A stretch of 64,000 nt of DNA from Alphaproteobacteria bacterium (GTDB lineage Bacteria; Pseudomonadota; Alphaproteobacteria; Rickettsiales; UBA3002). Below, one piece after another: positions 6,131-40,831 of the stretch (position 1 is its first letter; every line of letters starts with the position of its first letter). The DNA is taken from NCBI GenBank assembly GCA_033763655.1, contig JANRKD010000001.1, positions 64,023 through 128,022 on the forward strand. Direction: 5' to 3'. Under the pieces are notes generated by a model. It did no database searches, was not told the origin of the DNA, and saw only the letters and a list, made by a program, of their open reading frames with translations. The position numbers and the translations under genes were made by a program.

Positions 6131-6297
6131 GTCCGTTACTTATACACATCACTGGGGTACATTCACCGCACGACTCATCCTCACATTCCCACATTTCTTA
6201 TCCGGCGGTGTGGGTAACTGGAACAGTGGCATAGTCCTGCGCATGTATGTTAGTATGGTGGATGCCCACAACAAAAAATGATGGTGAGTACCCGCCC

Positions 6298-25810: not shown

Positions 25811-26253
25811 GCGGCCTCTTTCTTCAGCCCGAAGAATAATGGACCTGACCATTTGGCGCCGGTGATGACCTGCGCGATTTGCGACAGCGAACGATAGCGT
25901 TGGCCTTGATAGTACACCCCATCATCGAGCACCGTCACCTCATGGCTCACCCCATGCCATTCTCGCAGCAGCCGGGTGCCGGGTTTAACTTGCGTAACCG
26001 ACACTGCTGTTGCACGAGCTGCATGGCCATCTTCAGCAATTTTTATTAGATAGCGCTGCATGGATGGCTTCAACCCACCCAATGCTTGCTCCTGCATGTG
26101 GTAGGCAAGTGCACGTAGCATCAGGGGGTGGCTGATACTGCGAGGAGGCTCAGTACCATAAGCCGTTTGCCATGCAGCAGTCAGCGCTGCTCGGTCTAGG
26201 CTTGGCAGCCTCGCCAAATCACTGGCGAGGCTGCAGTTATTACGACGCTTCAT
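25807..26253 (-). CDS. DUF2924-like protein
   Basis: REWHGVSHEVTVLDDGVYYQGQRYRSLSQIAQVITGAKWSGPLFFGL. ATGA overlap with the recombinase start. Confidence 0.7.
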   Translation of the reverse strand: MKRRNNCSLASDLARLPSLDRAALTAAWQTAYGTEPPRSISHPLMLRALAYHMQEQALGGLKPSMQRYLIKIAEDGHAARATAVSVTQVKPGTRLLREWHGVSHEVTVLDDGVYYQGQRYRSLSQIAQVITGAKWSGPLFFGLKKEAA

Positions 26254-26606
26254 TATCGCGCATCCGCGATGCGGTACATACGACCACGTTCGCCGAACTC
26301 GGTAATGACGGGCAAGCCAAGGCGTTTCTTCAGTACGCCCGACAATGTGCCGTGCACGCTGTGCCGCTGCCAGCCAGTGGCCTCCATCAATTCTTCTATA
26401 GCAGCGCCCTTGGGCCGTTTTAGCAAGGTGATGAGGGCTTGCTGCTTTGTCGCAGCGGGCACCGCTGGCTGTGCCACCTTCGGTTTAGATTTACCGACGC
26501 TGATTTCAACGGGTGCGGCAGCCTGTTTTTTTGTGACTTTAGCAGTACGCAGTTTCGGTATTGCTGTTTCTGCGGTTTCGATCTGGTTAGGTTTTACTTT
26601 TGCCAT
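26253..26606 (-). CDS. DUF3489-like protein
   Basis: LLKRPKGAAIEELMEATGWQRHSVHGTLSGVLKKRLGL. Start at ATG 26606 with GAAGGAGA SD. Confidence 0.7.
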   Translation of the reverse strand: MAKVKPNQIETAETAIPKLRTAKVTKKQAAAPVEISVGKSKPKVAQPAVPAATKQQALITLLKRPKGAAIEELMEATGWQRHSVHGTLSGVLKKRLGLPVITEFGERGRMYRIADAR

Positions 26607-26998
26607 GGGATTCTCCTTCAGGTGACAACCCCAGCGGAATGCTGGGGCTTGTACTGCCATAAGCCCGCGTGCGGGCTGGAGATGCGGCATTAGGTGCGCC
26701 AGTAATGACAGCAATGCTTGCCGTGCGCATGAAGTCGAGTGGAATCTTATCATAAAATGACGAGTATTTCTCTTGCCTTAGTTATGTTTGCGGGTAACGT
26801 GGCCAATAGTTGGAAATGTAATCTAACTAGGGTGTTCAAACCCTTAACGTTAGCGGTCTTAGTGCACCGCTAAGCACTCCTCACCATTATGGTCGAGAAG
26901 GCGCACGTGTATGTTCAGGCTTCACGGCTAAAGACGTGCGCGACCTTGCTAACGTTAGGTTTTGAAACTCCCCGATCACCAGTGGGAGATGGAAACTC

Positions 26999-27739
26999 GT
27001 GTTCTCGCAACATGTCACAGAAGAGATCGGCCACTATGTGTATCGACTGATTGATCCACGTAACGGTGAAACATTCTATGTCGGCAAAGGTATTGGCAAC
27101 CGAGTATTCGCCCATATCAAAGGTGAGGCGGCAACTAACGGCGACGAACTTTCACAAAAATTACAGCGTATTCGAGAAATTCGGCTCGATGGTTTCGAAG
27201 TCGGGCACATTATCCATCGACATGGTCTTGACGAAAGAACGGCTTACGAAGTTGAGGCGGCACTGATCGATGCGTATCCCGCTGTTACCAACTCAGTCGG
27301 CGGTCATTATTCTGACGAACGTGGCGTTATGCATGCAACGCAGATCGTGCAGCAATATGGGGCACCGGAAGCAGTATTTAGGCACCGAGCCATTATGATT
27401 ACGATCAATCACACTGCGGCGGAACGCAGCATTTATGACGCCGTGCGCTATGCCTGGAAAATCGACCCGAAAAAGGCAAGAGAAGCCGAGTTAGTGCTAG
27501 CGATTCGTCACGGAATCATCGTGGGTGTTTTTGAGCCGAGTGAATGGCTGCCCGCAACGCCGGAAAACTTCCCCAGCACGCTAGAGATTTGGGAGGGGCG
27601 TTGGGGTTTTATCGGTGAAGAAGCACCCCCAGAGATAACGCGCCTTTATCTCCGCCACCGTATCCCCGACAGCATGCGCAAACGTGGTGCCGCCAATCCT
27701 GTTCGTTATGTAAATCCCTCCGCCGATTCTGGGGTATAA
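26999..27739 (+). CDS. GIY-YIG nuclease-domain protein with uncharacterised C-terminal domain
   Basis: YVYRLIDPRNGETFYVGKGIGNRVFAH (GIY...YIG...R), later YEVEAALID. GTG start. Confidence 0.75.
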   Translation: MFSQHVTEEIGHYVYRLIDPRNGETFYVGKGIGNRVFAHIKGEAATNGDELSQKLQRIREIRLDGFEVGHIIHRHGLDERTAYEVEAALIDAYPAVTNSVGGHYSDERGVMHATQIVQQYGAPEAVFRHRAIMITINHTAAERSIYDAVRYAWKIDPKKAREAELVLAIRHGIIVGVFEPSEWLPATPENFPSTLEIWEGRWGFIGEEAPPEITRLYLRHRIPDSMRKRGAANPVRYVNPSADSGV

Positions 27740-27741
27740 TC

Positions 27742-28677
27742 ATGCAAGTCACCGCAACAACAGGCCGCTATATCAAACTGGGCAGTAGCGGCAAATGGGA
27801 GCAGTTGTGCCTGCAAGATGGCACATTGCGCCTCGGGTATTATGAGGCGCCACATTCACCTGCTGTGGCGGGTGATAAGGAAGCAATCAAAGCAGCCTAT
27901 GCCTATCTTGATGGTAGCGTGGCGAGCGACAATGCGCGGCAAGTGCTACAGTTTTATGATCCTTCTGACACGGTGATTTGGATCACCTTCGCAGATGGAT
28001 TTCTATGGTGGTGTAAAGCAGCACCAGAAGTAGAATATTTTGGCAACGATCGTGCACTATACACCGATGGCAGCCGATTGCGCCGAGCCATCGACGGCTG
28101 GAGCAACCGCACACTTCAGGGCAAACCACTGCGGATGATGGAGCTGAAGGGCGAACTCACAAAAACCTCTGCCTACCGCAAAACCATCTGCGATTTGAAG
28201 CCGCATCTATTGGCCTACTTACTGCGCAAAATTAACGACGAAGCGCTGCCTGAAATTATTGCAGCGCAGCAGGCCATGAACGACCTCCAGGTCTCCATGC
28301 GCACGATGATCGCCATGCTACATTGGCGGGACTTTGAGCTGCTTGTGGAGTTGATATTCAGCCACAGCGGTTGGCAACGCGTCAGTGTCGTTGGCGAGAC
28401 TATGAAAACGACCGACATAGAACTCCGCCTGCCTATCACCAGCGAGCGCGCCATGGTGCAGATTAAATCCGAAACCACCCAAGCGGAGTTCAATGAATAT
28501 CTGACTGCCTTTGAACGATGGGAGATGCAGCGTTTATTCTACATCTATCACACAGCCAAAGTGCCGCTAATATCAGGCACGCATGATCCTCGTGTTACTC
28601 TCATTGGTCCAGATCAGTTAGCCTCGCTCGTGTTGCGCGCGGGCCTCGTTGAGTGGGTGATGGAGAAGGCGGGGTAG
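27742..28677 (+). CDS. Protein with C-terminal Mrr-like restriction-endonuclease (PD-(D/E)xK) domain
   Basis: WRDFELLVELIFSHSGWQRVSVVG...TDIELRL...AMVQIKS matches the Mrr catalytic-domain pattern. The N-terminal 200 aa are unknown. Starts 2 nt after the GIY-YIG gene. Confidence 0.65.
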   Translation: MQVTATTGRYIKLGSSGKWEQLCLQDGTLRLGYYEAPHSPAVAGDKEAIKAAYAYLDGSVASDNARQVLQFYDPSDTVIWITFADGFLWWCKAAPEVEYFGNDRALYTDGSRLRRAIDGWSNRTLQGKPLRMMELKGELTKTSAYRKTICDLKPHLLAYLLRKINDEALPEIIAAQQAMNDLQVSMRTMIAMLHWRDFELLVELIFSHSGWQRVSVVGETMKTTDIELRLPITSERAMVQIKSETTQAEFNEYLTAFERWEMQRLFYIYHTAKVPLISGTHDPRVTLIGPDQLASLVLRAGLVEWVMEKAG

Positions 28678-29113
28678 AGTTTATTTTACCAAGCAACTTG
28701 GTAAAGGCGTCTAGTTCCTCATCCGTCAGACTATTCAAACCTTTATCAAAAGCCTCACTTTGCTGTTTTTGTAGTATCGCTTGATCTGAAATCCCCTTCT
28801 CCTCCACGACCATAAGTAATGAAACCAACATATTGGCTGCACGTAGATCTCCCTTCGCTGCCTTTTGAGCCAGGCTTTTTGCCGAAACGACTATTAGGGG
28901 CAGCGTAAGTGTTCGTGTTCCATCATTCACTGGAACCTCTCGGTATGCTTCCCTGGCAATGATGGTAAGCACGCTATCTTCCTTTGGCTTGTTAATAGTC
29001 CCCTTTGGTCGCCCCGTGCGGTTACCAGAATGCCCCTTCTTGAATTGAGTATCCTTCGGGGGCTTGCAATAGCCTACCTTATAGCGCCCGCTGGGCTGTT
29101 TCTTTTTGCTCAT
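28601..29113 (-). CDS. DUF5681-like protein
   Basis: KKGHSGNRTGRPKGT motif. ATGA overlap with the upstream methyltransferase gene. The 3' end overlaps the convergent Mrr-like gene by 77 nt. Confidence 0.6.
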   Translation of the reverse strand: MSKKKQPSGRYKVGYCKPPKDTQFKKGHSGNRTGRPKGTINKPKEDSVLTIIAREAYREVPVNDGTRTLTLPLIVVSAKSLAQKAAKGDLRAANMLVSLLMVVEEKGISDQAILQKQQSEAFDKGLNSLTDEELDAFTKLLGKINSTPPSPSPTQRGPRATRARLTDLDQ

Positions 29114-30417
29114 ACGACCCCCGTTGCATCGCGATGTACGCATTCCGCTTCATCATGCGCGAAGGTCTCCCAGCGCGCGATGATGCGATCGCAATAAATG
29201 GGGTCGATTTCGCCGAGAAAGCCGCGACGACCAGTCTTGTGCGCAGCAATCAAGGTCGACCCACTACCACCGAATGGATCGAGCACGATGTCGCCGCGCT
29301 TGGAGACATCCTTGATGGCATCGGCGATCATCTGCACCGGTTTGACGGTCGGGTGTAGCGCCAGCTCCTCCATACGCCCAGCCCGCAGTGAATTCACACC
29401 ACGATATTGCCACACGTTGGTGCGATAGCGGCCGTTCTGGCCGAGCTCGAAACTGTTGGTATGAGCGGCGGTACCATGCTTGAAGGCAAAGACCAGTTCA
29501 TGGCGTGATCGATAAAAGGTTCCCATGCCACCATTATCCTTCGCCCAGACGATAAGGTTCTTGAGCTCGGTATATGCGGTTTTGCCAGCTGCCAATAGTT
29601 CCTGCATGTGCCGCCAATCCATACAGATGTAATGAATCGCTCCATCCACGCTATGCGCGGTCATATTCTCGAAGGCAGTTTGCAAAAATTGCGTGAATTG
29701 CGCCTCCGACATTTCCCCCGAAGCCATGGCAAACTCGCGATGCTTGATGCTGCCAGAACCGCATACATGGCCATCGACAGGCACATTGTATGGGGGATCG
29801 GTGAAGACCATCTGCGCCTTGTTGCCATCCATTAGGGTAGCAATCACTTTGGGATCAAGCGCATTGCCACAGATGAGGCGGTGACGCCCCAGTTGCCAGA
29901 TATCACCCACCGCGCAGCGTGCCTTGGTTGCATCTGACGGAGGTAGCTGGTCTTCGCGGGGATTCCCAACTTCTTCATTCGGATTGCCCTCGATAATGTG
30001 GTCCACCTCAGCGATCGAGAAGCCAGTAATGTCGATGGTAAACTCATCCTGGAGCAGCAATTCCTTTAGCTCTTCAGCGAGCAGTTCTTCATCCCATCCA
30101 GCGTTGAGTGCCAGTTTGTTATCAGCCAGCACATAGGCGCGCTTCTGCTGTGGCGTCATATGCTCCAGACGGATACAAGGCACTTCGCGCAAGGTGAGTA
30201 ATTTCGCCGCTTCCACACGCCCGTGCCCCGCAAGAATGGTATTCTCACTATCGATAAGCACTGGATTGGTGAACCCAAACCGTGTGATGCTATCTGCGAT
30301 CTGGCGCACCTGTTTCTTTGAATGGGTGCGGGCGTTATTTTTCCAAGGCTTCAGCGAAGCAATTGGCAGTTGTTCAATATGGTGGTCCATAAATTCTCCT
30401 ATCGTAAGACGTGCCAA
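29110..30417 (-). CDS. ParB-N-domain-fused DNA methyltransferase (N6A/N4C type)
   Basis: ParB-like N-terminus (ILAGHGR), TDPPYN catalytic motif, DPFGGSGST SAM-binding motif. Confidence 0.9.
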   Translation of the reverse strand: MARLTIGEFMDHHIEQLPIASLKPWKNNARTHSKKQVRQIADSITRFGFTNPVLIDSENTILAGHGRVEAAKLLTLREVPCIRLEHMTPQQKRAYVLADNKLALNAGWDEELLAEELKELLLQDEFTIDITGFSIAEVDHIIEGNPNEEVGNPREDQLPPSDATKARCAVGDIWQLGRHRLICGNALDPKVIATLMDGNKAQMVFTDPPYNVPVDGHVCGSGSIKHREFAMASGEMSEAQFTQFLQTAFENMTAHSVDGAIHYICMDWRHMQELLAAGKTAYTELKNLIVWAKDNGGMGTFYRSRHELVFAFKHGTAAHTNSFELGQNGRYRTNVWQYRGVNSLRAGRMEELALHPTVKPVQMIADAIKDVSKRGDIVLDPFGGSGSTLIAAHKTGRRGFLGEIDPIYCDRIIARWETFAHDEAECVHRDATGVV

Positions 30418-30723
30418 TGGGCACAGAGAAATGAACCCTGCGCATTAGCACATGTTAAAAATGTTGATGAAAATCAGGATGCTAAAAAGCCATGCTTTGC
30501 ATGGCTACCGCAGACCGATCAGTTTGTATGATCAGTCGCATGCCTCATTATATACATCATTTTATGCACCCCCGAAAGTAATTTGTGCGCCTGAATGATC
30601 TCGTTGGGTGCCACTTTATAAGTGATCATCAGGAGAGAAACCAGAGTTAAAATAAGGATATTCAAAACGATAAGCGCCTGATAGAAGAGATCTACAATTT
30701 CTAGTTGCTTATAGGGTTTCTAT

Positions 30724-32394
30724 ATGGCCTCTCACATGGGCGTGCAGACGCTAGCCACAAGTCGTAATTCGCAAGTCGAGTATATGGTTCATTTCGTTCT
30801 AGAAAGAGCGATGAAAGCACTTAGTGATAAAGGCCTTATTAGCAGTGCTAGGGTATCAGCCCAAAAGCAATACGTCTCCGAAATTGCTAGTGATATTTGG
30901 GATCATATTGCTACTGGCGTACAAAAAAATGGAAAGCCATTTCAATTATGGTGTCAAACTACATGTTACAAAGGAAATGGCACTGGCGCTCCCGAACCTA
31001 ATAAAACATATGAAGTTCGAGAAACGTTGGTTGAGGGCATTACAATTCGAGATCTCGTAAATCTGCAGAACGAGAATGAAGTTAGAACTCTGCATTTTAC
31101 TGTGGGAGATAGCGATTATACATACAAATGGTTTCTTGGCCTCAAATCAGCGAGCTATGATAAATCACTTTATGTCGGAAAAAAGGGCCTAGACGTTTTC
31201 GAGCTCCTAGATGCCGCCCTGCGCGGTGCCATCACAGAATCGGCAAAGGCTACGCTTTTGGAGAAATGCATTGTTGAGAAGAGTGAGCTCGGCAATCTTA
31301 TTTTGAATGCAGCCAATGAGCTGTTTGCTTGGTTCGTCGAAGGGGGGATGCCCAAGTCCAATATAGCCGATTTACAATGGCAACTGGTAAATACAGAACA
31401 TAAAAGTCATGCAGGAAAATGGCCAGATTTCTCCAAGTTAAAAGGGGAAGATATTAAGGGACGGACCAATAGGTTTCTGTTCGACGCCGACATCGTCGAA
31501 TCAGATACGCTAATACCGCGTGCTGCGGCTAAAATTCTTGAACGAAAACCATTCCTTTCGGCCGCATTAAAAGCCGTTGCAGATTGGCCCACGTTTGAGA
31601 CAGAGGTCCAGAGAATCTATGAACGGTCTGGTAGCATAGAAGATTTTGTGCGCAGACTATGGAATGCACCATCACCTTTACATTTATTAACTAGGCGCAT
31701 TCTTTTGAGAATTCATACTGGCGATAGTATTGCATACGTTCAAGATAGAGACGTCGCGGGTATTTCTGAGCATAATTTATATGCAGGATCGCATTCTGAA
31801 AAACAGGTGAGATTGATATGTAACCGAATTGTAGACGATATTTCTAAAGGCGGCATAACCACATCCCTAATGCTCATGAATAGTATATCGACGCAGGGAA
31901 AAAGAATTGTCAATCAGGCGCGGTGGTTTGAAGCAAAGAATGGCACTGAATTAAAACCTAGCTTTGAATATGCCGAAATGGCATTGCAGTCTGCGGGCTT
32001 TAAGGTGCTATCGCCAGCAGCTGCTAAATTCAAAGCCAATGGATATCATGGCGAAATTACCGTCGACAATGTAAGGCCATATACAAATCTGAAGGCAGTT
32101 TGTAATGCTGACGGAAAAATACTGGCCATTTTAAAGGCCAAATTCTTCCGAATTCAGGAATTCCCTAGAAGATGTAAGGAAGAATCATTTGTTGGACTAA
32201 CGCTAAAGTATAAATTTGAAAATGGTGCATTCGTACCGCGGCATAATATTCCTGTTGTTATGTTTGTGGACATGGCAGTTGATTGTAAACCACCAGAATA
32301 TGCCGTTAAGCGGCTAATAAGCTTTGGATGGGATGTTGTTTTCTCTACTGATGAACTAATTTCTTTGATGCATAAAATTGATCAGGGTTCATAG
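30724..32394 (+). CDS. Uncharacterised 556-aa protein (candidate nuclease/effector of the adjacent methyltransferase locus)
   Basis: Long clean ORF in very AT-rich DNA. No motif I can name. First gene of a two-gene operon convergent on the MTase operon. Confidence 0.7.
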   Translation: MASHMGVQTLATSRNSQVEYMVHFVLERAMKALSDKGLISSARVSAQKQYVSEIASDIWDHIATGVQKNGKPFQLWCQTTCYKGNGTGAPEPNKTYEVRETLVEGITIRDLVNLQNENEVRTLHFTVGDSDYTYKWFLGLKSASYDKSLYVGKKGLDVFELLDAALRGAITESAKATLLEKCIVEKSELGNLILNAANELFAWFVEGGMPKSNIADLQWQLVNTEHKSHAGKWPDFSKLKGEDIKGRTNRFLFDADIVESDTLIPRAAAKILERKPFLSAALKAVADWPTFETEVQRIYERSGSIEDFVRRLWNAPSPLHLLTRRILLRIHTGDSIAYVQDRDVAGISEHNLYAGSHSEKQVRLICNRIVDDISKGGITTSLMLMNSISTQGKRIVNQARWFEAKNGTELKPSFEYAEMALQSAGFKVLSPAAAKFKANGYHGEITVDNVRPYTNLKAVCNADGKILAILKAKFFRIQEFPRRCKEESFVGLTLKYKFENGAFVPRHNIPVVMFVDMAVDCKPPEYAVKRLISFGWDVVFSTDELISLMHKIDQGS

Positions 32395-32397
32395 CTT

Positions 32398-33240
32398 ATG
32401 TATTTAGAAAAACTTAGAGCCTTATGTGCGACCACTGCTCCTATCTTTCAAGATATAATTACGCATAATTCTGCGATTACTTCTTCAACGTGGAACGCTA
32501 AGGTAGAGACTGGAAAGGCTGTAGAATTTTATAGTCTGTGCTGTCTGGCTGCAGGTTTAGAAAAATTAGGAATCGGAATCTCAATACCAGCAATATATCT
32601 TGAGCACCCTGATTTATTTTATTTGCGCAATATTCTACCTCGTCACCATGGCACTCAAGCAGGTCATTCTGCAGCAATAAATAGCATTCCTTTGAGCGAT
32701 AGGTTTGTTGCGGCTCTTACACCCAAATTTATATTCGAAACGGTCGGTTCAAAATATGGGATCTACAGAGAAGGTTTTCCTATTCATCTCATTGAACACT
32801 TAAATAAGGGTGAAGAAGAATATCTAGATCGACCAGATGTATTGATTTGTAGAGGAACAATGACGAGCAAACTAATTAGCTCGGAAAGAATTGCCTTCAC
32901 TTATGAATCCCAAAGCGGCCGATGCGAAGGAATTCTGCGAATCAAAAACGATGCGTTAATTCCGATTATTTCGTATGACTCCAATTTGCTTAATGTCCCT
33001 GTGGTGGGGATCATCGAATGCAGTGTTAGCAAGGGTGATACAAAGGCCGAAGAGCAATTACGACGATACCTCGCCATTTACAGTGGCGCAACATCACCAG
33101 TATCATTACTAATCAATGGTAGGCGCCAGAAATGTCCTGCATACACACACGAAGCGTTTATCGATATGGACTTTGATAATGCAGAAGCCATAACAGGCTT
33201 TACTGCTGTTATTGATCGATTCAGCAAAGCGATTATCTGA
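32398..33240 (+). CDS. Uncharacterised 280-aa protein, possible PD-(D/E)xK nuclease
   Basis: Starts 3 nt after the previous stop. YLDRPDVLICRG ... VVGIIECSVSKGD is a weak PD...E..K-like pattern. Confidence 0.6.
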   Translation: MYLEKLRALCATTAPIFQDIITHNSAITSSTWNAKVETGKAVEFYSLCCLAAGLEKLGIGISIPAIYLEHPDLFYLRNILPRHHGTQAGHSAAINSIPLSDRFVAALTPKFIFETVGSKYGIYREGFPIHLIEHLNKGEEEYLDRPDVLICRGTMTSKLISSERIAFTYESQSGRCEGILRIKNDALIPIISYDSNLLNVPVVGIIECSVSKGDTKAEEQLRRYLAIYSGATSPVSLLINGRRQKCPAYTHEAFIDMDFDNAEAITGFTAVIDRFSKAII

Positions 33241-33243
33241 TAA

Positions 33244-34359
33244 TTAGAGATAGGAAAAAATTTGCCGGAATAATTGCAACGCAAAGAGCGGCGGCACGGC
33301 ATTGCCAATTTGCCTCGCCTGAGAGGTGGTTTTACCATAGAAGTTTATCCAATCAGGAAACGTCTGAAGTCTGGCTTGCTCGCGAATAGTTAGTCTTCTT
33401 GTTCCCTTGAGAGTGACTTTTTTTTGGCGAGAAGTGGATGTTTTGGGCGCATCCAGCCATGCTGGATGGCAATTCCGGAGAAGCTCCTGCAATTCATTTT
33501 GTGGCGCTCTGAATGCAATATCCTCCAGAGGTACAGGGCCAGGAACAAAGGCGGATTGCGCAGGCTCTTCACAAAGAGCAAATTCATCACCTCGAACACG
33601 AAGAGTAAACGCGGGCTCAGTATGAGCATTCCTATTTCTCGGTCCCCGCATTTGCGAATTTGCACGATGCGCAAAGAAATTACCCTGTGGCAGCACAATG
33701 TCCCCTAGTGCGTCATTGACAGAGTTATACGCATGAGCCTTGTCACAGGGGGCTATCTTCTTTCTTGGATCATAGCAAAATGCTTCAGGCCAAACGAAGT
33801 CTATGCCGCATCGGTTGCCTACGAGAATTGCTCGCTTCCGAAGCTGCGGCACGCCAAATTCTGCCATATTTACGACTTTGTAGTCTACCTTATACCCTAT
33901 GGATGCGAAATCCTCTAAAATTTGCCGTAGGATTATGCCTTGGCCAATATTTGTGATGCCTTCCACGTTTTCTAAGACAAACCATTTTGGCTGATAGAAT
34001 TTAACAATCTCTACAAAATGTTTGTATAAGTGATTCCGTGGGTCATCCACAAACCGTAATCCCCGAGCCAAAGAAAATCCCTGACAGGGCGGGCCACCGA
34101 TAATTACGTCAACATCACCTTTACGACTTTTGGGTTTCCAATTGCTGATATTTGCACATGCGACATCATCTGCATAAGGAAAGATAGATTGATATGTCTT
34201 AATCGAATCAGAATCAAAATCGACTGCTCCTAGAGGCTGGCCACCTGCGATAGCGAAACCCACACTTAGGCCTCCGGCTCCTGAAAATAAATCAAGACAG
34301 GTTGGTTTTTGTTTAAGAGGTTGATGAATATCCTCTAATATTGCGGCCATTTTGTTCAT
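33244..34359 (-). CDS. DNA cytosine-5 methyltransferase
   Basis: LFSGAGG (motif I), GGPPCQGFS (IV), ENV (VI), QIGNAVPP (X). Confidence 0.95.
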   Translation of the reverse strand: MNKMAAILEDIHQPLKQKPTCLDLFSGAGGLSVGFAIAGGQPLGAVDFDSDSIKTYQSIFPYADDVACANISNWKPKSRKGDVDVIIGGPPCQGFSLARGLRFVDDPRNHLYKHFVEIVKFYQPKWFVLENVEGITNIGQGIILRQILEDFASIGYKVDYKVVNMAEFGVPQLRKRAILVGNRCGIDFVWPEAFCYDPRKKIAPCDKAHAYNSVNDALGDIVLPQGNFFAHRANSQMRGPRNRNAHTEPAFTLRVRGDEFALCEEPAQSAFVPGPVPLEDIAFRAPQNELQELLRNCHPAWLDAPKTSTSRQKKVTLKGTRRLTIREQARLQTFPDWINFYGKTTSQARQIGNAVPPLFALQLFRQIFSYL

Positions 34360-36215
34360 AATGATTCACCATAAAATTCTTCGACAGCTTGGTCTAATAG
34401 GGACTTAGATTCAAGTGTTTCCCCGTGCTGGATAATTGATGTCACAAACCCGACTATCTTGGCTCGAGCTGCGCTCTCAACCTGAAAATGTTTGGGTAAT
34501 GGAAAATCTTTTACAAACGTTTTCTTAAATCTGAATCTTCCTTGTGCTTTTAAATTTCCAACGCTCGAACAGCGATTTGAAAAATACACTTTAGCCATTT
34601 CACTGTTAAGTATGCCTAGCAATGCCAAGTCATTTGAATCAATGAAATATGCCCCATCGGCAACTAAAGTTCCTTCGGTACAAATGGAGAATCTTTGTTT
34701 GGCGGAAAGATCGGGAAAAATGATTTTCTCCTGCAACATATCTTTATAGTAAGAGCAGGCTCTTAAACGATACCACTTCTCAGCAGAATCAACCTCGTTC
34801 CGTTTTTCTAAGATACCGCGATACTTTTCTAGATACTGCAAAAGCTCCCGCGGAGGAATAATAGAATCTTTTGGTATAAAAAGCAGATGGCTCAATTTCT
34901 TGACGCCATGCCAACTTAAGATATTGGATGGAAGGACCACAGGTCTGATCCAATCTTTCTTAATATCCGCGCTGAAATCAGCGACCTGCTCTTCATTCAA
35001 ATAGAATGCTTCAGAATAGCCTGTTCTAATGCCAGAAAAAACAGTTATTCCGAATTCTGATAATGGCTTTGTATTTTTGAGAAAGCCATCCATCTTCTTA
35101 AAACTGACCATGTCGGAATGGAAAGACCAGCCGTGCGAATCTGACATATCCGCATGAACATCCAGCATTGAAGCGAGGCTAGTCGAGAGTTGTTCTAGAT
35201 CATCTGTCTTATTCACTTCGCAATATTTTATGGTGCTATTTGGGGAATCTGTTTTTGACAGTGCATAAATGGCGGTGTGAACGCTTGCTCCACTAAATAC
35301 TGGAGTTTCACCTAAATCTATCAGTGTAGCTAGATTCGCATTCTTTTTGATAAATTTTCTTACGTTCGCACTGCTTGTCCCGCGAAGAAACCCTGCTGGA
35401 GTAATAAATGCTAAGACTCCATTATTTTTTAGGCAGTTAATGCTGCTGGATATGAAGTAATTATAAAGATCCGCGGAACCATAAAACGATTCTGGGAAAC
35501 TGAGCTTTAAAGAATTTCGATAAGACGCAGATAGGCGCGTTGACCTTACATATGGGGGGTTTCCGATAACAAAATCGTAGGTTGGCTTAGTGCTTAGAAG
35601 ATCGCTCGATTCCTTATTACGCTCCAGAAAATCGCCGCACTCGAAAGTCAGCCTACCTGATTTAATATATTCTTCAATATCTAGCTTATTTCTTTCTAAT
35701 TCAATCTTGATGTTGCAGAGGCTTAAAAAGACTGCGCTAGGGGAAAGATCATTAATCGCTATTATAGGCAGATTATCAATTTCTTTTGGATAAATGCCAA
35801 GATATGCCTCGATTAATGCTAAGGGAAACACCCCTGCTCCAACGCATGGGTCGAGCCAATTTAATTCCCGAATATCATAACGTGCCTCAGATACAATTTT
35901 ACGCGTCTCTAGTGCTAACGAAACGATCAGATTGGCAACATTCCGTGGCGTTTCCACTACCCCATTATTCAGTCGGCTTCCGCTCCATGACTCATCGCCA
36001 AAAAACAAGCGAGCTATTGAATCGTATGATTGTCCTTTTAGAACAACTAACCGAAGCAATTCTATGAATGTTGCGGGAGCAATAAGATCCAACCTTTGTA
36101 TGACTTCCAGGGACCTCTCAATAGTATTGAAAGATGTTGATGCATGCGTTTGCTTTCGGCCTGCACCTAGCCCATCAGGAATGACGACCCGAACTCGATT
36201 CATCAAGGCTGTCAT
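34356..36215 (-). CDS. N6-adenine DNA methyltransferase (gamma-class, Eco57I/TaqI-like architecture)
   Basis: LDPCVGAGVF (motif I) followed by VIGNPPYV (motif IV), with a long C-terminal target-recognition region. 4-nt overlaps with both neighbours. Confidence 0.85.
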   Translation of the reverse strand: MTALMNRVRVVIPDGLGAGRKQTHASTSFNTIERSLEVIQRLDLIAPATFIELLRLVVLKGQSYDSIARLFFGDESWSGSRLNNGVVETPRNVANLIVSLALETRKIVSEARYDIRELNWLDPCVGAGVFPLALIEAYLGIYPKEIDNLPIIAINDLSPSAVFLSLCNIKIELERNKLDIEEYIKSGRLTFECGDFLERNKESSDLLSTKPTYDFVIGNPPYVRSTRLSASYRNSLKLSFPESFYGSADLYNYFISSSINCLKNNGVLAFITPAGFLRGTSSANVRKFIKKNANLATLIDLGETPVFSGASVHTAIYALSKTDSPNSTIKYCEVNKTDDLEQLSTSLASMLDVHADMSDSHGWSFHSDMVSFKKMDGFLKNTKPLSEFGITVFSGIRTGYSEAFYLNEEQVADFSADIKKDWIRPVVLPSNILSWHGVKKLSHLLFIPKDSIIPPRELLQYLEKYRGILEKRNEVDSAEKWYRLRACSYYKDMLQEKIIFPDLSAKQRFSICTEGTLVADGAYFIDSNDLALLGILNSEMAKVYFSNRCSSVGNLKAQGRFRFKKTFVKDFPLPKHFQVESAARAKIVGFVTSIIQHGETLESKSLLDQAVEEFYGESL

Positions 36216-36463
36216 TGAAGATTACCAGATTTGATTTTTTGATTATTAATCCACGCTTCTAAGTCGTCTTTGTGAAAGCGCCATGCATTTCCTACTTTGA
36301 AGCTAGGCACTTTACCTTCTGCGGCAAATCGGTAAGCAGTTTTTTCAGCGATTTTTGAGTATCCCGCGAGCTCCTTAACAGTCATGATCTCGTTGTCTGG
36401 CATAAAAACCTGCACATAATGGCCGCTAGGGTTGAAAATAGTGGAAACAGAATGAATCATCAA
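36212..36463 (-). CDS. Excisionase/MerR-type HTH DNA-binding protein (83 aa)
   Basis: MTVKELAGYSKIAEKTAYRFAAEGKVPSFKVGNAWRFHKDDLEAWI. Confidence 0.7.
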   Translation of the reverse strand: MMIHSVSTIFNPSGHYVQVFMPDNEIMTVKELAGYSKIAEKTAYRFAAEGKVPSFKVGNAWRFHKDDLEAWINNQKIKSGNLQ

Positions 36464-36468
36464 CTGCT

Positions 36469-37026
36469 TTAACCAGTGGCTCTCCCCAGCTGAATATCCA
36501 CGCCTGTCATACGGAATCTGTAGGTCAGCATTTCATTGCTGACCATATAATGATTGCCCGCCGTTTGGTTGCACCAACCCTTATTGCGAATGTGGATCAA
36601 GGCAGGGCGCGGAAGCAGCAATGCTCCGCCTAGCCAGTCAGCTTCATCTTCCTGTTCTTGATCGAAGTGACTAGGTATAAATGATCCGTCTGAGAGTTTG
36701 TGGCCTTTTGCTACACTATGGCCAAGAGTAATATGTGCCAACTCATGCATCAGAACGCTGTTGATGCGCGGTTTAGACTGGTTCGGATCATAAACGACCA
36801 TATGGTGCTTGCCTATTTTTAAGGTAAAGGCTGACCAAGCTTCTGCACTGAGCGCATCATTCAAAACTTTTTGAGGCACCTCAGGTATTTCAGCGGCGCT
36901 TTTGACCCTGATTTGTAGATGGGCGGCTAAGTCAAACGCGTTGAGTGGGGCGCACTCACCCAAGCCAAGCTGCTTACGCATCTCAACAGATCGTCGTTCG
37001 CTTTGCGCTTTGAAACCACGTTTCAA
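36469..37026 (-). CDS. ImmA/IrrE-family zinc metallopeptidase
   Basis: HELAHITLGH (HExxH) in a protein of about 185 aa, immediately downstream of an XRE gene. Confidence 0.85.
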   Translation of the reverse strand: MKRGFKAQSERRSVEMRKQLGLGECAPLNAFDLAAHLQIRVKSAAEIPEVPQKVLNDALSAEAWSAFTLKIGKHHMVVYDPNQSKPRINSVLMHELAHITLGHSVAKGHKLSDGSFIPSHFDQEQEDEADWLGGALLLPRPALIHIRNKGWCNQTAGNHYMVSNEMLTYRFRMTGVDIQLGRATG

Positions 37027-37028
37027 TG

Positions 37029-37388
37029 TTAATGGCTCGCAGACTTAATCTCTTTTTCAAAAGAATTATATGCTGCGAGGATTAGCTGACCGAGTGCTTG
37101 CGCAGTTTTCTGATCTTTTGATTTTTTAGCTTTAAACATAATCTGGATTTCGGGCGATGATGACTGACTGGGGGCATCGGCTCCAAAACCAAAATAGCCA
37201 CGCGCATCAAGCTCGGCCCACGCGAATACTTTCTTCATCGTTTCCATGTCCGACAAATGTCCGTTCTCTATTCTGGATAGCGTAGCGGGGCTTGTGCCTA
37301 TTTCTTTAGCGGCTGCTCGTATTCCCATGCTGCCGCGCTTACGTGCGATCAACTGGCCTATTTCTTCAGGGGATAAATCGGGGTTCAT
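37029..37388 (-). CDS. XRE-family HTH regulator
   Basis: GIRAAAKEIGTSPATLSRIENGH. Confidence 0.85.
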   Translation of the reverse strand: MNPDLSPEEIGQLIARKRGSMGIRAAAKEIGTSPATLSRIENGHLSDMETMKKVFAWAELDARGYFGFGADAPSQSSSPEIQIMFKAKKSKDQKTAQALGQLILAAYNSFEKEIKSASH

Positions 37389-37415
37389 AAAAAACCGTTT
37401 CAGTTATGAAAAAAC

Positions 37416-37433
37416 TGTTTCAAAGTTGAAACA
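37416..37433. promoter_or_regulatory. Palindromic candidate operator in the divergent XRE / Ubl-operon spacer
   Basis: tgtttcaa-ag-ttgaaaca, with extra GTTTCA half-sites nearby (ccgtttcag, cagttttcag). Confidence 0.4.
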
Positions 37434-37545
37434 CATGTGATAGTGTCTCATATGTAAGACAGTTTTCAGCCAACTCCTAGATCTCGCACGGGTCAAGCAA
37501 AAAGTGTCTTTCATCAAGAACTTCTAGAAACTTTTGGAGACCACG

Positions 37546-38232
37546 ATGACTAAAAATGACACAGAAGAAACAAATGCCAAGCAGTTATCCTTCGCGGTTA
37601 ACGGCACTAACTATAAATCCAACGACCCCGTCCTTTCAGGACGGGACATATTACAAAAAGCTGGCTTCAAGCCCGCCAGTGATCACGTGCTGATCGAGTT
37701 GACCAACCCTGGTACGCGTTCAGTAGGCCTCGATGAAACGGTCGATCTTGCAATCCCTGGCCGCGAAGCGTTCTACGCTTTTTCATCAGACCGCGTCTAT
37801 AACTTCACCGCTGATGAGCTCGGGTATGAATGGGGTGCCCCCACCATTGCCGAGGCCCAATTACGTGAGGTCACGGGTGCAGATGATAGCTTAGTCTTCG
37901 TTCTGGAGCGTACGGACCAGCCAGATCAGGTGATCGAAGAAGGCGAAAGCGTAGATTTGAACGCGAAAGGCACAGAGCATATTCGCACCAAGAAGCGCAT
38001 TGTGCACATCATCGTGAACGCACGCGAGTATGAAGTCCCGGGCCCCAAGATCACCTATGATCAAGTAGTGGCTCTTGCCTTCAACCCTGTGCCTAGCGGT
38101 CCAGAGGTTCTTTTTACCGTGACGTACCGCAAGGGGCCACCTCAAAACCCCAAAGGCACTTTGCCTGAGGGCCAGTCGGTAACCATCAAAAACGGGATGA
38201 TCTTCAATGTCACGCAGACCAATCGCTCGTAG
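37546..38232 (+). CDS. Tandem beta-grasp ('multiubiquitin'-like) protein
   Basis: Two internally similar segments (SFAVNGTNYKSNDPVLSGRDILQKAGF... and HIIVNAREYEVPGPKITYDQVVALAF...). C-terminus KNGMIFNVTQTNRS. Start placed at ATG 37546 (GGAGA SD) rather than TTG 37534. Confidence 0.7.
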   Translation: MTKNDTEETNAKQLSFAVNGTNYKSNDPVLSGRDILQKAGFKPASDHVLIELTNPGTRSVGLDETVDLAIPGREAFYAFSSDRVYNFTADELGYEWGAPTIAEAQLREVTGADDSLVFVLERTDQPDQVIEEGESVDLNAKGTEHIRTKKRIVHIIVNAREYEVPGPKITYDQVVALAFNPVPSGPEVLFTVTYRKGPPQNPKGTLPEGQSVTIKNGMIFNVTQTNRS

Positions 38233-39391
38233 TCCAGACCTTGTGCGCTTGCTGGCGGATGGATACCACATTTCCATCCGCCATGGCCACCTGGTAGCAA
38301 CGAAGATCCCGTACGTGAATGCCCAACGGCAAGTCAAATACGGTATCCTCGTTGCTCCACTAACGCTGCGTAATGATGTGGCGATCCAGCCCGCCGACCA
38401 CACCATAATGTTCGGGGGAGAATATCCCTGCGATCAACATGGCAAGCCTATCGAAGCTGTTCGCAATAACTCGGATAGTTTGCGAATAGCGGACGACTTG
38501 ATCGTGCAACACAGGTTCTCCGCCAAGCCCTCAGCGGGAAATTATGTGGATTTCCACGAAAAGATCGTAACGTACGCGGCGGCCATCAGTGGCCCCGCAC
38601 AGATCATCGATCCGGCCGTTAAGCCCAATCCTGGCGGCTTTGTACCCGCAGATGAAACGGAGGATTCCATCTTTAATTATATGGATACGGCTTCCCCGCG
38701 TGCAGAAATCACAGCCGTTACCGCCAAGCTTGAATGTCGTAAACTGGTGATCATCGGATTGGGTGGTACTGGGAGTTATATCCTCGACCAGGTCAGCAAA
38801 ACGCCTATAGAGCAGATCCATTGTTATGATGGCGATATCTTCGAGCAACATAATGCCTTTCGTGCCCCTGGTGCTGCCTCGGGCGCTGACCTAGAGGCAG
38901 TCATGAAGAAGGTCGACTACTACAAGGCCATATACTCAAAAATGCATCGCGGTATTGTTGCCCATCCGTACTATGTCGATGCCAGCAACATCGACGAACT
39001 GCGCGATGCCGACTTTGTCTTTATTTGTATCGATGACGGCATTGCGCGGCGGTTTATCATTGAGAAGCTGGAAGAGTTCGGCATCAGTTTTATCGATGTT
39101 GGCATGGGTGTTGTTCTTTGTAGTGACTCACTCGGTGGCATCGTACGCACAACGGCTAGCACCCCAACAGCGCGCGATCATGTTTGCAAACGCGTCTCGC
39201 TATCCAACACGGAGGATGATAAGAACGAGTATGATAAGAACATCCAAGTTGCCGACTTGAACGCTTTGAATGCGGCGCTGGCTGTTATCAAATGGAAGAA
39301 GTTAAGGGGGTTCTACGTGGACTTGGAGAAAGAGCACCACAGCACCTACACCATCGATGGCAACACCATCGACAGTGAAGACAGCAAATGA
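38207..39391 (+). CDS. ThiF/E1-like adenylyltransferase with an extra N-terminal domain of about 170 aa
   Basis: Rossmann motif LVIIGLGGTGSYILDQV and ThiF-like fold signature downstream. Overlaps the Ubl gene by 26 nt. Confidence 0.8.
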   Translation: MSRRPIARSPDLVRLLADGYHISIRHGHLVATKIPYVNAQRQVKYGILVAPLTLRNDVAIQPADHTIMFGGEYPCDQHGKPIEAVRNNSDSLRIADDLIVQHRFSAKPSAGNYVDFHEKIVTYAAAISGPAQIIDPAVKPNPGGFVPADETEDSIFNYMDTASPRAEITAVTAKLECRKLVIIGLGGTGSYILDQVSKTPIEQIHCYDGDIFEQHNAFRAPGAASGADLEAVMKKVDYYKAIYSKMHRGIVAHPYYVDASNIDELRDADFVFICIDDGIARRFIIEKLEEFGISFIDVGMGVVLCSDSLGGIVRTTASTPTARDHVCKRVSLSNTEDDKNEYDKNIQVADLNALNAALAVIKWKKLRGFYVDLEKEHHSTYTIDGNTIDSEDSK

Positions 39392-39825
39392 AGTCAAACT
39401 TTAGCATAGCGCATGAATTTGTTGAGTTCATTCCTCGAGACATGGAGGAGCGAACGCTCTACATCGCCATGGAATTTGCCACAGCTAGTCATAGATGCTT
39501 CTGCGGTTGCGGTGCCGAAGTGGTCACGCCGCTAAGCCCAACAGCGTGGCAACTCTCCTATGACGGAGAAAATGTCTCTCTTAACCCATCCATTGGCAGC
39601 TGGAGCCTACCATGCCAGTCACATTACTGGATTCGTCGAGGAAAAGTTGAGTGGTCATATGCTATGTCGAAAGAAGAGATCGCAGCCGTTAAGCGGCGCG
39701 ATCAAGAAGATACTTTGCATTATCATGGAGCGGTGACCGCCAGTGATGCGCTACAGCGGCCTGCCGCAGAACCATTGCAGCATAAAGGTGCACTTGCTCG
39801 ACTTATGGCCTGGCTTTCCAAATAA
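39388..39825 (+). CDS. Small Cys-rich protein (DUF6527-like), third gene of the Ubl operon
   Basis: HRCFCGCGAEV ... LPCQSHYW (possible Zn site). ATGA overlap with the E1-like gene. Confidence 0.6.
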   Translation: MKSNFSIAHEFVEFIPRDMEERTLYIAMEFATASHRCFCGCGAEVVTPLSPTAWQLSYDGENVSLNPSIGSWSLPCQSHYWIRRGKVEWSYAMSKEEIAAVKRRDQEDTLHYHGAVTASDALQRPAAEPLQHKGALARLMAWLSK

Positions 39826-39826
39826 C

Positions 39827-40831
39827 CTAAAGTCCCCGCGCAGATTGTTTAATGGGTGGTCTGCTTTTCACCGAGCTAAACCCCATATCGAGTATCTTGC
39901 CATTATCGACCGTCACGGTTGCAGCGGCGAGGTGCCCGTCTTTGGCAACGCTTTGGTCGATGCAAATGGCATTGGGTGATTCGACCGTCGGATGTTCACC
40001 ACGCTGCCAATAGTGACCGAAAAAGACGGTGCTATCTTCGAGATTCTGCACCTCACGCATGCGCGCCCTGATATCATCTGGCGCGGGGACATTCGGGATG
40101 TTCTCTGGCGGCACATCGAGAATCACATCCGCGAGCTTCAAATTGGCATCATCGGGATTTGCCCACCATTTCAGCCGTGCCAATTTACGAGGTGTGCCAT
40201 CCGCATCATAGAATTTAACACCGGGAGGAAGCGGCACCTCTACCCCTTTGGTCAGCAATTCAATCGCGTCACAGCCGGGTGTATATTTCACCGCCAATTC
40301 ATGCCAACGCGTGGGATTTATCGTGCGGTCTGCTCTGAGCAACCCTTCTTTGTTAAGGTAGTCGACCGCTGGCTGGTCCCACAGCGCATGCACAAAGCGC
40401 AGCCCTTCCAGTTCGAGATATACTGGCAACGATTTTATTCACTCAATGTTTTGGGCGGCTCGCTCGGGGTTCTGGGTTGCTTCATCCAAGAACGCCTGAT
40501 GCTGGTGGACGTTCCTTGTTCCGTGCCCGCGCAATGGCCTCAACTCGCCACTTTTGTTGGGGTGCTGCGTGTGAAACAGCGAGGCATTCAGCTCATGATT
40601 ACCCATAATCGCATGCGCATGACCAGCCTGCACCATGCCACGCACGATGTCGATAACCTCGAAATTCTCTCCGCCACGATCAATATAATCGCCGGTGAAT
40701 ACAGCCATGCGGTTGGGCTCAGGGGGAATGTAAACACCATTGCCATCGCGCACGTAGCCAAGCTTCTCAAGCAATGCCTTCAGTTCAACGGCATGGCCGT
40801 GAATATCGCCGATAATGTCGTATTTTTTCAT
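39827..40831 (-). pseudogene. ApaH/PrpE-like metallophosphoesterase interrupted by one in-frame TGA (40439-40441)
   Basis: DIIGDIHGH, GDYIDRG and GNHE in the upstream ORF. The downstream ORF is in the same frame, 3 codons after the stop, and continues the family (FVHALWD...FFGHYW). Confidence 0.8.

What the first reader, a model, noticed from the sequence alone, without database searches (positions are those of the whole stretch)
33244..37388. Two DNA methyltransferases wired into one operon behind an XRE repressor, an ImmA protease and an excisionase-type HTH
Seen in the sequence: five minus-strand genes are packed with gaps or overlaps of 0-5 nt. In order they are XRE (119 aa), ImmA/IrrE HExxH peptidase, an 83-aa Xis/MerR-like HTH, an NPPY m6A MTase and an m5C MTase.

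Established knowledge: XRE + ImmA pairs act as repressor/anti-repressor protease switches in ICEs and prophages (ImmR/ImmA type). R-M systems normally use a small C-protein instead.

Inference: modification, and hence restriction tolerance, may be put under a damage- or infection-responsive proteolytic switch. Alternatively, this may be the regulatory module of a mobile element that captured the MTases. The same spacer (palindrome 37416-37433) also faces the ubiquitin-like operon, so one regulator may control both.
Basis: partly seen in the sequence, partly recalled or inferred. Interest (0 to 1): 0.6.

Follow-up and report, generated by a model that had tools for sequence, protein, structure and literature searches.

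The report
Two defence modules joined by chance
The apparent five-gene operon is two separate, already known kinds of bacterial defence module lying end to end on a mobile island: a repressor/protease pair that controls the neighbouring ubiquitin-like operon, and a restriction-modification cassette that appears to carry its own promoter, so this is an ordinary mosaic junction.

Summary
All five minus-strand genes exist and the domain calls are right: XRE, M78/ImmA peptidase, HTH_17, NPPY N6-adenine MTase, m5C MTase. They are not one conserved unit.

- **XRE-ImmA belongs to the other side.** In 5 metagenomic and 66 genome loci with ImmA homologues, XRE always directly precedes ImmA. The pair faces a divergent defence operon (Type II Bub, Bil, CBASS and others). 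No locus has an HTH_17 or MTase downstream. This is the published CapH/CapP arrangement, reported for 31% of Bub operons.
- **HTH_17 belongs to the MTases.** HTH_17, both MTases and the two convergent genes (280 aa, 556 aa) form a restriction-modification cassette. It recurs in unrelated contexts and never with XRE/ImmA (0 of 85 MTase loci).
- **The junction is a seam.** Homology to the Bub/CapHP backbone stops at the ImmA stop codon. Five nt later begins a non-coding block conserved upstream of HTH_17 in four other loci: TTGATn, 17 nt, TATTTT, then a CAGGTT ribosome-binding-like site.
- **The 5-nt gap is an artefact.** The TTG "start" of the 83-aa ORF is that block's -35-like hexamer. The real HTH_17 is probably 63 aa, starting at 36403, which leaves a 65-nt gap.
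- **XRE operators.** Operator-like palindromes lie only in the XRE/Bub spacer.

Read-through from the XRE promoter into the MTases is possible, since no terminator is predicted, but it is unique to this genome. An earlier scan agent had already called the Bub operon and the R-M unit on this window.

The parts
37029..37388 (-). XRE-family HTH repressor (CapH-like), 119 aa
   Evidence: Pfam HTH_3. An XRE homologue lies directly upstream of ImmA in all 71 relative loci where that side is present.
36469..37026 (-). ImmA/IrrE-type M78 Zn-metallopeptidase (short CapP-like), 185 aa, HExxH at 94-98
   Evidence: Pfam Peptidase_M78 6.9e-13. PADLOC capP 4.9e-6. The family profile hits CapP 7t5t at E=0.009. 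AF2 model has pLDDT 89.6, and its best PDB neighbour is IrrE 3dti.
37389..37533 (.). Divergent regulatory spacer between XRE and bubA. It holds three related palindromes (37396-37413, 37416-37433, 37444-37461), a conserved TTGACC (37491-37496, minus strand) and a conserved extended -10-like TGATAGTGT (37438-37446, plus strand).
   Evidence: The spacer is conserved across five loci whose Ubl operons are of three different types (alignment A5). Assigning the hexamers to promoters is inference.
37534..39825 (+). Type II Bub operon: BubA (Multi_ubiq, 37534-38232), BubBD (DUF6791+ThiF, 38207-39391), BubE (DUF6527, 39388-39825)
   Evidence: Pfam. Gene set as defined in PMC11601596. Same synteny in L002/L003 at 84-91% identity, except that L002's BubE is a 69% fragment.
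36404..36468 (-). Module junction plus the promoter-like block of the R-M cassette: -35-like TTGATG (36458-36463), 17-nt spacer, -10-like TATTTT (36435-36440), SD-like CAGG (36408-36411)
   Evidence: Backbone homology with L002/L003 ends at the ImmA stop codon. The block is conserved upstream of HTH_17 in L087, L164, L165 and L007. No terminator or stable structure is predicted.
36212..36403 (-). HTH_17 (MerR/Xis-like) small DNA-binding protein, probably 63 aa. The ORF stays open up to the TTG at 36463.
   Evidence: Pfam HTH_17 1.4e-14. Homologues of 59-65 aa sit directly upstream of the same MTase in L087/L088, L164, L165 and L010, and in L007 with one gene in between.
34356..36215 (-). N6-adenine DNA methyltransferase of the Eco57I/TaqI_C type, NPPY motif, 619 aa
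   Evidence: Pfam Eco57I 1.8e-26, N6_Mtase, TaqI_C. PADLOC MTase_II/IIG. N219-P220-P221-Y222 invariant in 25 homologues.
33244..34359 (-). C5-cytosine DNA methyltransferase, 371 aa
   Evidence: Pfam DNA_methylase 1.4e-65. It always follows the N6 MTase in relatives, at 55-87% identity.
30724..33240 (+). Two convergent genes with no Pfam match (556 aa at 30724-32394; 280 aa at 32398-33240): presumed restriction endonuclease subunits of the cassette
   Evidence: No Pfam or PADLOC hit. At least one of the two is found convergent with the two MTases in about 19 loci, and both in about 13. Nuclease function is inferred, not shown.

Best explanation
Two independent modules abut on a serine-recombinase island.

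**Module 1: regulator of the ubiquitin-like operon.** This is a CapH/CapP-type pair, the XRE repressor and the ImmA-like Zn-peptidase, together with its divergent promoter/operator spacer. It controls the Type II Bub operon on the other strand, and probably its own transcription as well. By analogy with CapH/CapP, ImmR/ImmA and DdrO/IrrE, the repressor would sit on the TGTTTCA-N4-TGAAACA-type palindromes until the peptidase cleaves it after DNA damage or infection.

**Module 2: a self-contained restriction-modification cassette.** It comprises HTH_17, an N6A MTase, an m5C MTase and two convergent presumed nuclease genes. It occupies the variable cargo slot that begins right after the peptidase stop codon. 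It brings its own conserved promoter-like block, and HTH_17 is its likely controller.

The five genes look like one operon only because the cassette was inserted in the same orientation, and because the HTH_17 ORF happens to stay open upstream into the -35-like hexamer.

**Shown here:** gene content, comparative linkage, the position of the junction, the conserved blocks.
**Inferred:** promoter activity, repressor binding, cleavage, nuclease function.
For: 1. Closest ImmA homologues. P0001 (91%, loci L002/L003), P0002 (69%, L004) and P0003 (62%, L005) all show XRE-ImmA divergent from a Ubl operon of Bub, unnamed or Bil type. The gene downstream of ImmA is a different, convergent one in each.
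2. Genome loci. In 66 genome loci XRE directly precedes ImmA, and none has HTH_17, M6A or M5C downstream on the same strand. The closest co-directional downstream genes I scanned are unrelated to MTases: Replic_Relax, an integrase, a Glyoxalase-domain protein and unknowns.
3. Divergent partners of this clade. Among 126 upstream ORFs from 64 loci, Pfam found SMODS/CBASS 19, ThiF 10, Patatin 8, DUF6791 7, DUF2188 3, DUF3892 2 and ThsB 2. That is the spectrum published for CapH/CapP.
4. Literature. CapH+CapP pairs lie upstream of and opposite to 6e.2/Type II Bub operons (10.1101/2022.04.27.489752). The count is 168 of 544 Bub operons (PMC11601596).
5. The MTase pair. It recurs with at least one of the two convergent genes in about 19 loci, behind a Tn7-like transposon, a phage integrase or efflux genes. 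XRE/ImmA is found in 0 of 85 loci.
6. The junction. Window/L003 identity ends at the ImmA stop codon. From 5 nt further on, the window aligns with the region upstream of HTH_17 in L087, L164, L165 and L007: TTGATn-17-TATTTT, then CAGGTT and ATG.
7. HTH_17 length. Homologues are 59-65 aa and start at the window's M21.
8. Operators. XRE-type palindromes occur only at 37396-37461.
9. GC content. There is a step at the junction: cassette 0.40-0.46, XRE/ImmA 0.47-0.49, Bub 0.51-0.52, chromosome 0.60.
10. Distribution. The ImmA|HTH_17 junction was not found in 40 related genomes, 23 of them in the same genus.
Against: - No terminator-like site or stable hairpin lies between ImmA and HTH_17. Transcripts from the XRE promoter probably run on into the MTase genes, so some functional coupling cannot be excluded.
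- The cassette promoter is only a consensus-like block with 8 of 12 hexamer matches. It fell below the scan threshold, and its activity is untested.
- The peptidase is a short form of 185 aa without the GAF domain of the characterised CapP, so its activation signal is unknown.
Confidence: 0.8

Rival explanations
1. All five genes form one functional operon. DNA methylation, and hence the balance between modification and restriction, is deliberately placed under the XRE/ImmA damage- or infection-responsive proteolytic switch.
For: The genes are co-directional and close together. No terminator is predicted between ImmA and HTH_17, so read-through from the XRE promoter is likely. There is a precedent for methylation-based defence under a CapH-CapP-like regulator: DISARM with a CapH-CapP fusion, described in 10.1101/2022.04.27.489752.
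Against: The linkage is unique. It occurs in 0 of 71 ImmA loci and 0 of 85 MTase loci, and is absent from 40 relatives. The cassette carries its own conserved promoter-like block. No XRE operator lies in the cassette. The nuclease genes are on the other strand, outside any such control. In published CapH/CapP systems the regulated operon is the divergent one.
Confidence: 0.12
2. XRE-ImmA-HTH_17 is an ImmR/ImmA/Xis-type immunity and excision module of the integrated element. It would control island excision or transfer rather than defence genes, with the MTases as cargo.
For: The region lies in a low-GC island next to a tRNA-Ile gene and carries serine recombinases and ParB genes. ImmR/ImmA pairs control ICEs and prophages (established knowledge; also discussed). 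HTH_17 is the excisionase/MerR-like family.
Against: HTH_17 travels with the MTases in six other contexts, including a chromosomal efflux-gene context with no recombinase in the sequence held. In 64 loci this XRE-ImmA clade faces CBASS, Bub, Bil, DUF2188 or DUF3892 operons rather than recombination genes. The conserved spacer faces the Ubl operon in every close relative.
Confidence: 0.05

Closest known systems
CapH/CapP regulator pair of CBASS and other defence operons (Lau et al. 2022, 10.1101/2022.04.27.489752), including those upstream of 6e.2/Type II Bub operons (Ye et al. 2024, PMC11601596)
   Same: An XRE HTH gene is immediately followed by an HExxH M78 peptidase gene. The pair sits upstream of and opposite to a defence operon. 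The same protein clade is found next to CBASS, Bub, DUF2188 and DUF3892 operons. The intergenic region carries conserved palindromes.
   Different: The peptidase is 185 aa, with the peptidase domain plus a helical tail. It has no C-terminal GAF domain and no cysteine-switch loop. Sequence similarity to solved CapP is marginal (E=0.009). Cleavage and ssDNA activation are untested.
ImmR/ImmA of ICEBs1 and DdrO/IrrE of Deinococcus
   Same: The same repressor plus anti-repressor metalloprotease logic. IrrE (3dti) is the best structural neighbour of the model. The size is close to that of ImmA.
   Different: The pair here is not placed next to integrase/excisionase genes or to DNA-repair regulon genes. 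In relatives it is linked to defence operons.
Type II restriction-modification cassettes with two methyltransferases and a two-subunit nuclease, compared by the earlier scan agent to BsrDI/BtsI-type heterodimeric enzymes
   Same: An N6A MTase and an m5C MTase in one operon, convergent with two co-transcribed genes. The unit is conserved and mobile.
   Different: The two presumed nuclease subunits match no Pfam or PADLOC family. The small upstream regulator is an HTH_17 protein, not the usual HTH_3 C-protein, and it is present in only part of the family.
MADS (methylation-associated defence system) mad1-mad2
   Same: A small HTH_17 protein (PADLOC mad1, 1.5e-7) sits directly upstream of an Eco57I-like MTase (mad2, 1.3e-17).
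   Different: No other mad gene is present. The MTase scores much better against plain Type II/IIG MTase models (1e-39 to 1e-41). The partner genes here are an m5C MTase and two unknown convergent genes.

Membership tests
CapH/CapP | XRE-type HTH repressor gene immediately followed by an HExxH M78 peptidase gene | tested here: met
   The gap is 2 nt, and the pairing is kept in all 71 relative loci.
CapH/CapP | Pair located upstream of, and on the opposite strand to, a defence operon | tested here: met
   The Type II Bub operon is divergent in the window. The same holds in relatives, with Bub, Bil, CBASS and other operons. The arrangement is stated.
CapH/CapP | CapP architecture of peptidase + HTH-like linker + C-terminal GAF domain | tested here: not met
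   185 aa against 291 aa for 7t5t. Pfam finds only M78, at residues 62-171. The model has a peptidase core plus helices and no GAF-like alpha/beta domain.
CapH/CapP | ssDNA-stimulated cleavage of the repressor and derepression of the operon after DNA damage | not testable with these tools
   Needs biochemistry or reporters. Expression data were unavailable.
Type II Bub operon | BubA (Ubl, Multi_ubiq), BubBD (E2-E1 fusion: DUF6791+ThiF), BubE (DUF6527), no JAB peptidase | tested here: met
   Pfam hits. Definition quoted.
ImmR/ImmA of ICEs/prophages | Regulates adjacent integration/excision and transfer genes of the element | tested here: not met
   The neighbours are Bub and R-M genes. The recombinases lie more than 7 kb away. 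Relatives face defence operons.
Type II R-M cassette | Methyltransferase(s) genetically linked to nuclease gene(s) as a conserved mobile unit | tested here: met
   M6A-M5C with at least one of the convergent 280-aa and 556-aa genes in about 19 loci, and with both in about 13, in unrelated flanks. Nuclease activity itself was not tested.
C-protein-controlled R-M | Small HTH_3 controller protein with a C-box operator upstream of its own gene | tested here: inconclusive
   The small protein is HTH_17, not HTH_3. A conserved upstream block exists, but no clear repeat operator was identified.
MADS | Eight-gene mad1-mad8 locus | tested here: not met
   Only mad1- and mad2-like hits. None of the other eight proteins scanned (the m5C MTase, both convergent genes, XRE, ImmA and the three Bub proteins) matches a mad model.

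The most novel reading that the evidence does not exclude
Because no terminator separates the peptidase gene from the R-M cassette, cleavage of the XRE repressor after DNA damage would send extra transcription through HTH_17 and both methyltransferase genes, but not the opposite-strand nuclease genes. That would transiently raise the methylation-to-restriction ratio just when repair and replication restart create unmodified DNA. It would be an accidental but useful protection against self-restriction, and might explain why the cassette was kept in this orientation in the cargo slot.
Probability: 0.12. Interest if true: 0.5.

Novelty: new member of a known kind. Interest (0 to 1): 0.22.

Why it matters
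The result mainly corrects the reading of this region. What looked like a new way of regulating DNA modification is the edge-to-edge packing of two defence modules on a mobile island.

Three points are of practical use:
- A short, GAF-less CapP-like peptidase clade, found here mostly in alphaproteobacterial genome records, serves CBASS, Bub, Bil and other operons with a portable and strongly conserved operator/promoter spacer.
- The cargo slot of this island family begins exactly at the peptidase stop codon.
- An ORF caller can turn a -35 hexamer into a start codon and so create a false "5-nt gap" operon.

If read-through does couple methylation to the damage switch, it would be a simple example of regulatory capture by insertion.

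Tried and rejected
- **Promoter/terminator scan.** The generic scan of 33000-37700 gave no more hits than shuffles (9 against 8.9 expected). It missed the conserved block, which scores 8 of 12, so only comparative alignment revealed it.
- **RNA elements.** Rfam found nothing in 30000-40000. The RNA fold of the junction is not unusual (z = -0.81).
- **Cassette left boundary.** I looked for a conserved block upstream of the 556-aa gene. Nothing is conserved beyond the start-codon region.
- **MADS.** Rejected because only mad1/mad2-like hits are present.
- **HTH_17 as island excisionase.** Rejected because it travels with the MTases, including in a context with no recombinase in the sequence held.
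- **XRE in the PDB.** A sequence search gave only weak generic HTH hits, all E > 0.03.
- **Gene calls.** My crude ORF-based calls in the GC-rich relative loci are noisy, so gap sizes there are approximate.


Full report
**1. What is in the sequence**

Their domain content is as stated:

| Coordinates | Length | Pfam assignment |
|---|---|---|
| 37029-37388 | 119 aa | HTH_3 (XRE) |
| 36469-37026 | 185 aa | Peptidase_M78 (ImmA/IrrE) |
| 36212-36463 | 83-aa ORF | HTH_17 |
| 34356-36215 | 619 aa | Eco57I + N6_Mtase + TaqI_C |
| 33244-34359 | 371 aa | C-5 DNA_methylase |

The catalytic motifs are conserved. HExxH at H94/E95/H98 and E126 are invariant in 46 ImmA homologues. NPPY at 219-222 is invariant in 25 MTase homologues.

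Two plus-strand genes without any Pfam or PADLOC match converge on the m5C MTase: 556 aa at 30724-32394 and 280 aa at 32398-33240. Upstream of XRE and on the other strand lies a complete Type II Bub operon: Multi_ubiq, DUF6791+ThiF and DUF6527/BubE.

The region sits in a low-GC island, 0.39-0.55 against about 0.60 for the flanks. The island begins at a tRNA-Ile gene and carries serine recombinases and ParB genes.

**2. Whom XRE-ImmA travels with**

The closest ImmA homologues all show the same picture. XRE-ImmA is divergent from a ubiquitin-like operon, and the gene after ImmA is a different, convergent one each time.

| Locus | ImmA identity | Divergent Ubl operon | Gene after ImmA |
|---|---|---|---|
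| L002, L003 | 91% | Type II Bub (84-91% identical; L002's BubE is a 69% fragment) | PLD nuclease of an MmeI-like system |
| L004 | 69% | unnamed ThiF-containing type | 280-aa protein, not homologous to the window's |
| L005 | 62% | BilA-BilB-BilD | HTH_31 gene |

L002-L004 also share the window's resolvase-ParB-ParB backbone at 81-92% identity. L005 shares the GIY-YIG, ParB-MTase and DUF2924 genes found to the left of the cassette.

A profile scan of one genome per species returned 70 loci, most from Alphaproteobacteria.
- In the 66 that kept both genes, XRE directly precedes ImmA.
- No locus has an HTH_17, N6A MTase or m5C MTase downstream on the same strand.
- The closest co-directional downstream genes I scanned were a Replic_Relax protein, a tyrosine integrase, a Glyoxalase-domain protein and unknowns.
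- The divergent partners, taken as 126 upstream ORFs from 64 loci, are SMODS/DncV-like CBASS cyclases (19), ThiF E1s (10), patatin (8), DUF6791 (7), DUF2188 (3), DUF3892 (2), ThsB-TIR (2) and others.

This is the association spectrum published for CapH/CapP. [quoted passage not shown] Ye et al. count a CapH+CapP pair at 168 of 544 Bub operons.

The window's XRE-ImmA pair is therefore the regulator of the Bub operon, a known arrangement.

**3. The regulatory spacer**

The 145-nt XRE/bubA spacer is strikingly conserved across the window and L002-L005, even though their Ubl operons are of three different types. It contains:
- two degenerate copies at 37396-37413 and 37444-37461, the latter itself a near-palindrome, TGTCTTACATATGAGACA, unique in the window;
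- an invariant TTGACC at 37491-37496 on the XRE strand;
- a conserved TGnTAnTGT at 37438-37446 on the Bub strand, which fits an extended -10.

The palindromes would overlap the -35 and +1 positions of a Bub-directed promoter. That assignment is inference. No similar palindrome occurs anywhere in 30418-36468.

**4. Whom HTH_17 and the MTases travel with**

The N6A MTase family is small, with about 30 relatives above 35% identity.

In every locus with enough flank, the MTase is followed by the m5C MTase (55-87% identical). That in turn is followed by at least one of the convergent homologues of the 280-aa and 556-aa genes, and by both in about 13 loci. About 19 loci show this arrangement, behind a Tn7-like transposon (L008), a phage integrase in Pectobacterium (L009), efflux-pump genes (L087/L088) and others. 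XRE or ImmA homologues were found in none of the 85 MTase loci.

An HTH_17 gene precedes the MTase in all four closest relatives (57-58% identity): L007, L010, L164 and L165. It does so again in L087/L088. These proteins are 59-65 aa and begin MP(N/D)D(D/E)IMT or MSDDEIMT, which corresponds to M21 of the window ORF.

HTH_17 is therefore a facultative component of the R-M cassette. It is neither a partner of XRE-ImmA nor the island's excisionase.

**5. The junction**

Window and L002/L003 DNA is about 90% identical up to the ImmA stop codon (36469-36471) and unrelated beyond it. Five nucleotides later the window becomes alignable with the non-coding DNA upstream of HTH_17 in L087, L164, L165 and, more weakly, L007. 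The shared layout is:
- TTGAT(G/T/A);
- 17 nt;
- TATTTT within an invariant TTTCCACTATTTTCAA;
- about 25 nt;
- (A/G)CAGGTT;
- 4-5 nt;
- ATG.

In window coordinates, on the minus strand, the -35-like hexamer is 36458-36463, the -10-like hexamer is 36435-36440, and the ATG is at 36403. The TTG that the ORF list uses as the start of the 83-aa protein is the first three bases of that -35-like hexamer.

The "5-nt gap" between ImmA and HTH_17 is therefore most likely a 65-nt intergenic region, filled by the cassette's own promoter-like block. GC content also steps at this point: 0.49 for ImmA, 0.40 for the block and 0.41 for HTH_17 and the N6A MTase. The junction sequence was not found in 40 related genomes, including 23 of the same genus.

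**6. How it most likely works**

*Shown.* There are two modules with different evolutionary partners. They meet at a sharp seam at the ImmA stop codon. The cassette carries its own conserved upstream block. XRE-type operators are confined to the Bub spacer.

*Inferred from the characterised CapH/CapP, ImmR/ImmA and DdrO/IrrE systems.* XRE dimers occupy the palindromes and repress the Bub operon, and probably their own promoter. After DNA damage or infection the peptidase cleaves XRE and the Bub operon is induced. The R-M cassette is expressed from its own promoter, with HTH_17 as a likely controller.

*Open.* No terminator-like site or stable hairpin lies between ImmA and HTH_17. Transcripts from the XRE promoter may run into the MTase genes. 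This would be a side effect of insertion orientation. It could still raise methylase expression, but not nuclease expression, on induction.

**7. The peptidase compared with CapP**

- The profile of the family hits solved CapP (7t5t) only marginally, at E=0.009 over the HExxH core.
- A confident model (pLDDT 89.6) finds IrrE (3dti) as the best PDB neighbour, with TM 0.52 on the query.
- At 185 aa the protein has the peptidase domain and a helical tail, but not the C-terminal GAF domain of CapP/IrrE.
- There is no cysteine between the HExxH and the third ligand, so there is no cysteine switch. Lau et al. find that loop in only 33% of CapPs.

It works like CapP by context, and belongs to a clade that serves CBASS, but it fails the three-domain architecture test.

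**8. Verdict**

The headline interpretation, that methylation is wired under a proteolytic switch, is not supported.

Both correspond to published knowledge. Earlier agents of this scan had already identified the Bub operon and the two-MTase/two-subunit R-M unit on this same window. I re-derived both independently.

Limits:
- Promoter and operator assignments rest on conservation only.
- My gene calls in the relative loci are crude.

Noticed in passing
window 37389-37533; L002 7474-7650; L003 6240-6415; L004 7475-7660; L005 7475-7660: The XRE/Ubl intergenic spacer is far better conserved than the operons it faces. The same blocks (AAAGACACTTTTT-CTTGAC, TGTCTTA..GAGACA, TGAAACA repeats) sit in front of a Type II Bub operon, a Bil operon and a third ThiF-containing operon. 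The regulator plus promoter region seems to be exchanged as one portable unit between different ubiquitin-like systems.
   Followed up: partly
L004 5447-7484; L012-L014 about 4350-6350: A three-gene operon (217 aa, 170 aa, 291-aa ThiF protein) sits divergent from XRE-ImmA. The first two proteins have no Pfam hit on record. It recurs in Pseudohongiella MAGs at 35-41% identity and may be a further, unnamed Ubl/E1 system.
   Followed up: no
L011-L078 (genome loci): This CapP-like clade is uniformly short (185-199 aa, no GAF domain), yet it is attached to about 19 CBASS operons, mostly in alphaproteobacterial genome records. How a GAF-less CapP senses its signal is unclear.
   Followed up: partly
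L088 5758-8397: The N6A MTase ORF runs on into an unrelated C-terminal region, giving 879 aa. The otherwise near-identical L087 has a normal 610-aa MTase followed by the m5C MTase. This is either a chimeric contig or a cassette truncated by a rearrangement.
   Followed up: no
L007 3979-5117: Here a DUF4268 gene (314 aa) is inserted between HTH_17 and the N6A MTase, so the HTH_17-MTase linkage tolerates an extra gene.
   Followed up: no
window 24168-30417 compared with L005 8931-13649: The genes left of the R-M cassette have homologues in L005 on the far side of its XRE-ImmA: GIY-YIG nuclease 68%, ParB-N6_N4 MTase 54%, DUF5681-like 32%, DUF2924 57%. The R-M cassette therefore occupies a cargo slot between the peptidase gene and the ParB-MTase gene of a composite island.
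   Followed up: partly
G000 contig C19 12627-12968 (locus L162): There is a second M78 peptidase domain in the same genome, inside a 418-aa open frame. It may be a fused XRE-peptidase of the RosmerTA RmrA type. I did not examine it.
   Followed up: no
window 45860-45877: An operator-like sequence, TGTTTCATTGTTGACACT (2 mismatches to the palindrome pattern), lies inside the 518-aa resolvase gene. It is probably chance: 5 matches were found in the window against 1.9 expected.
   Followed up: no
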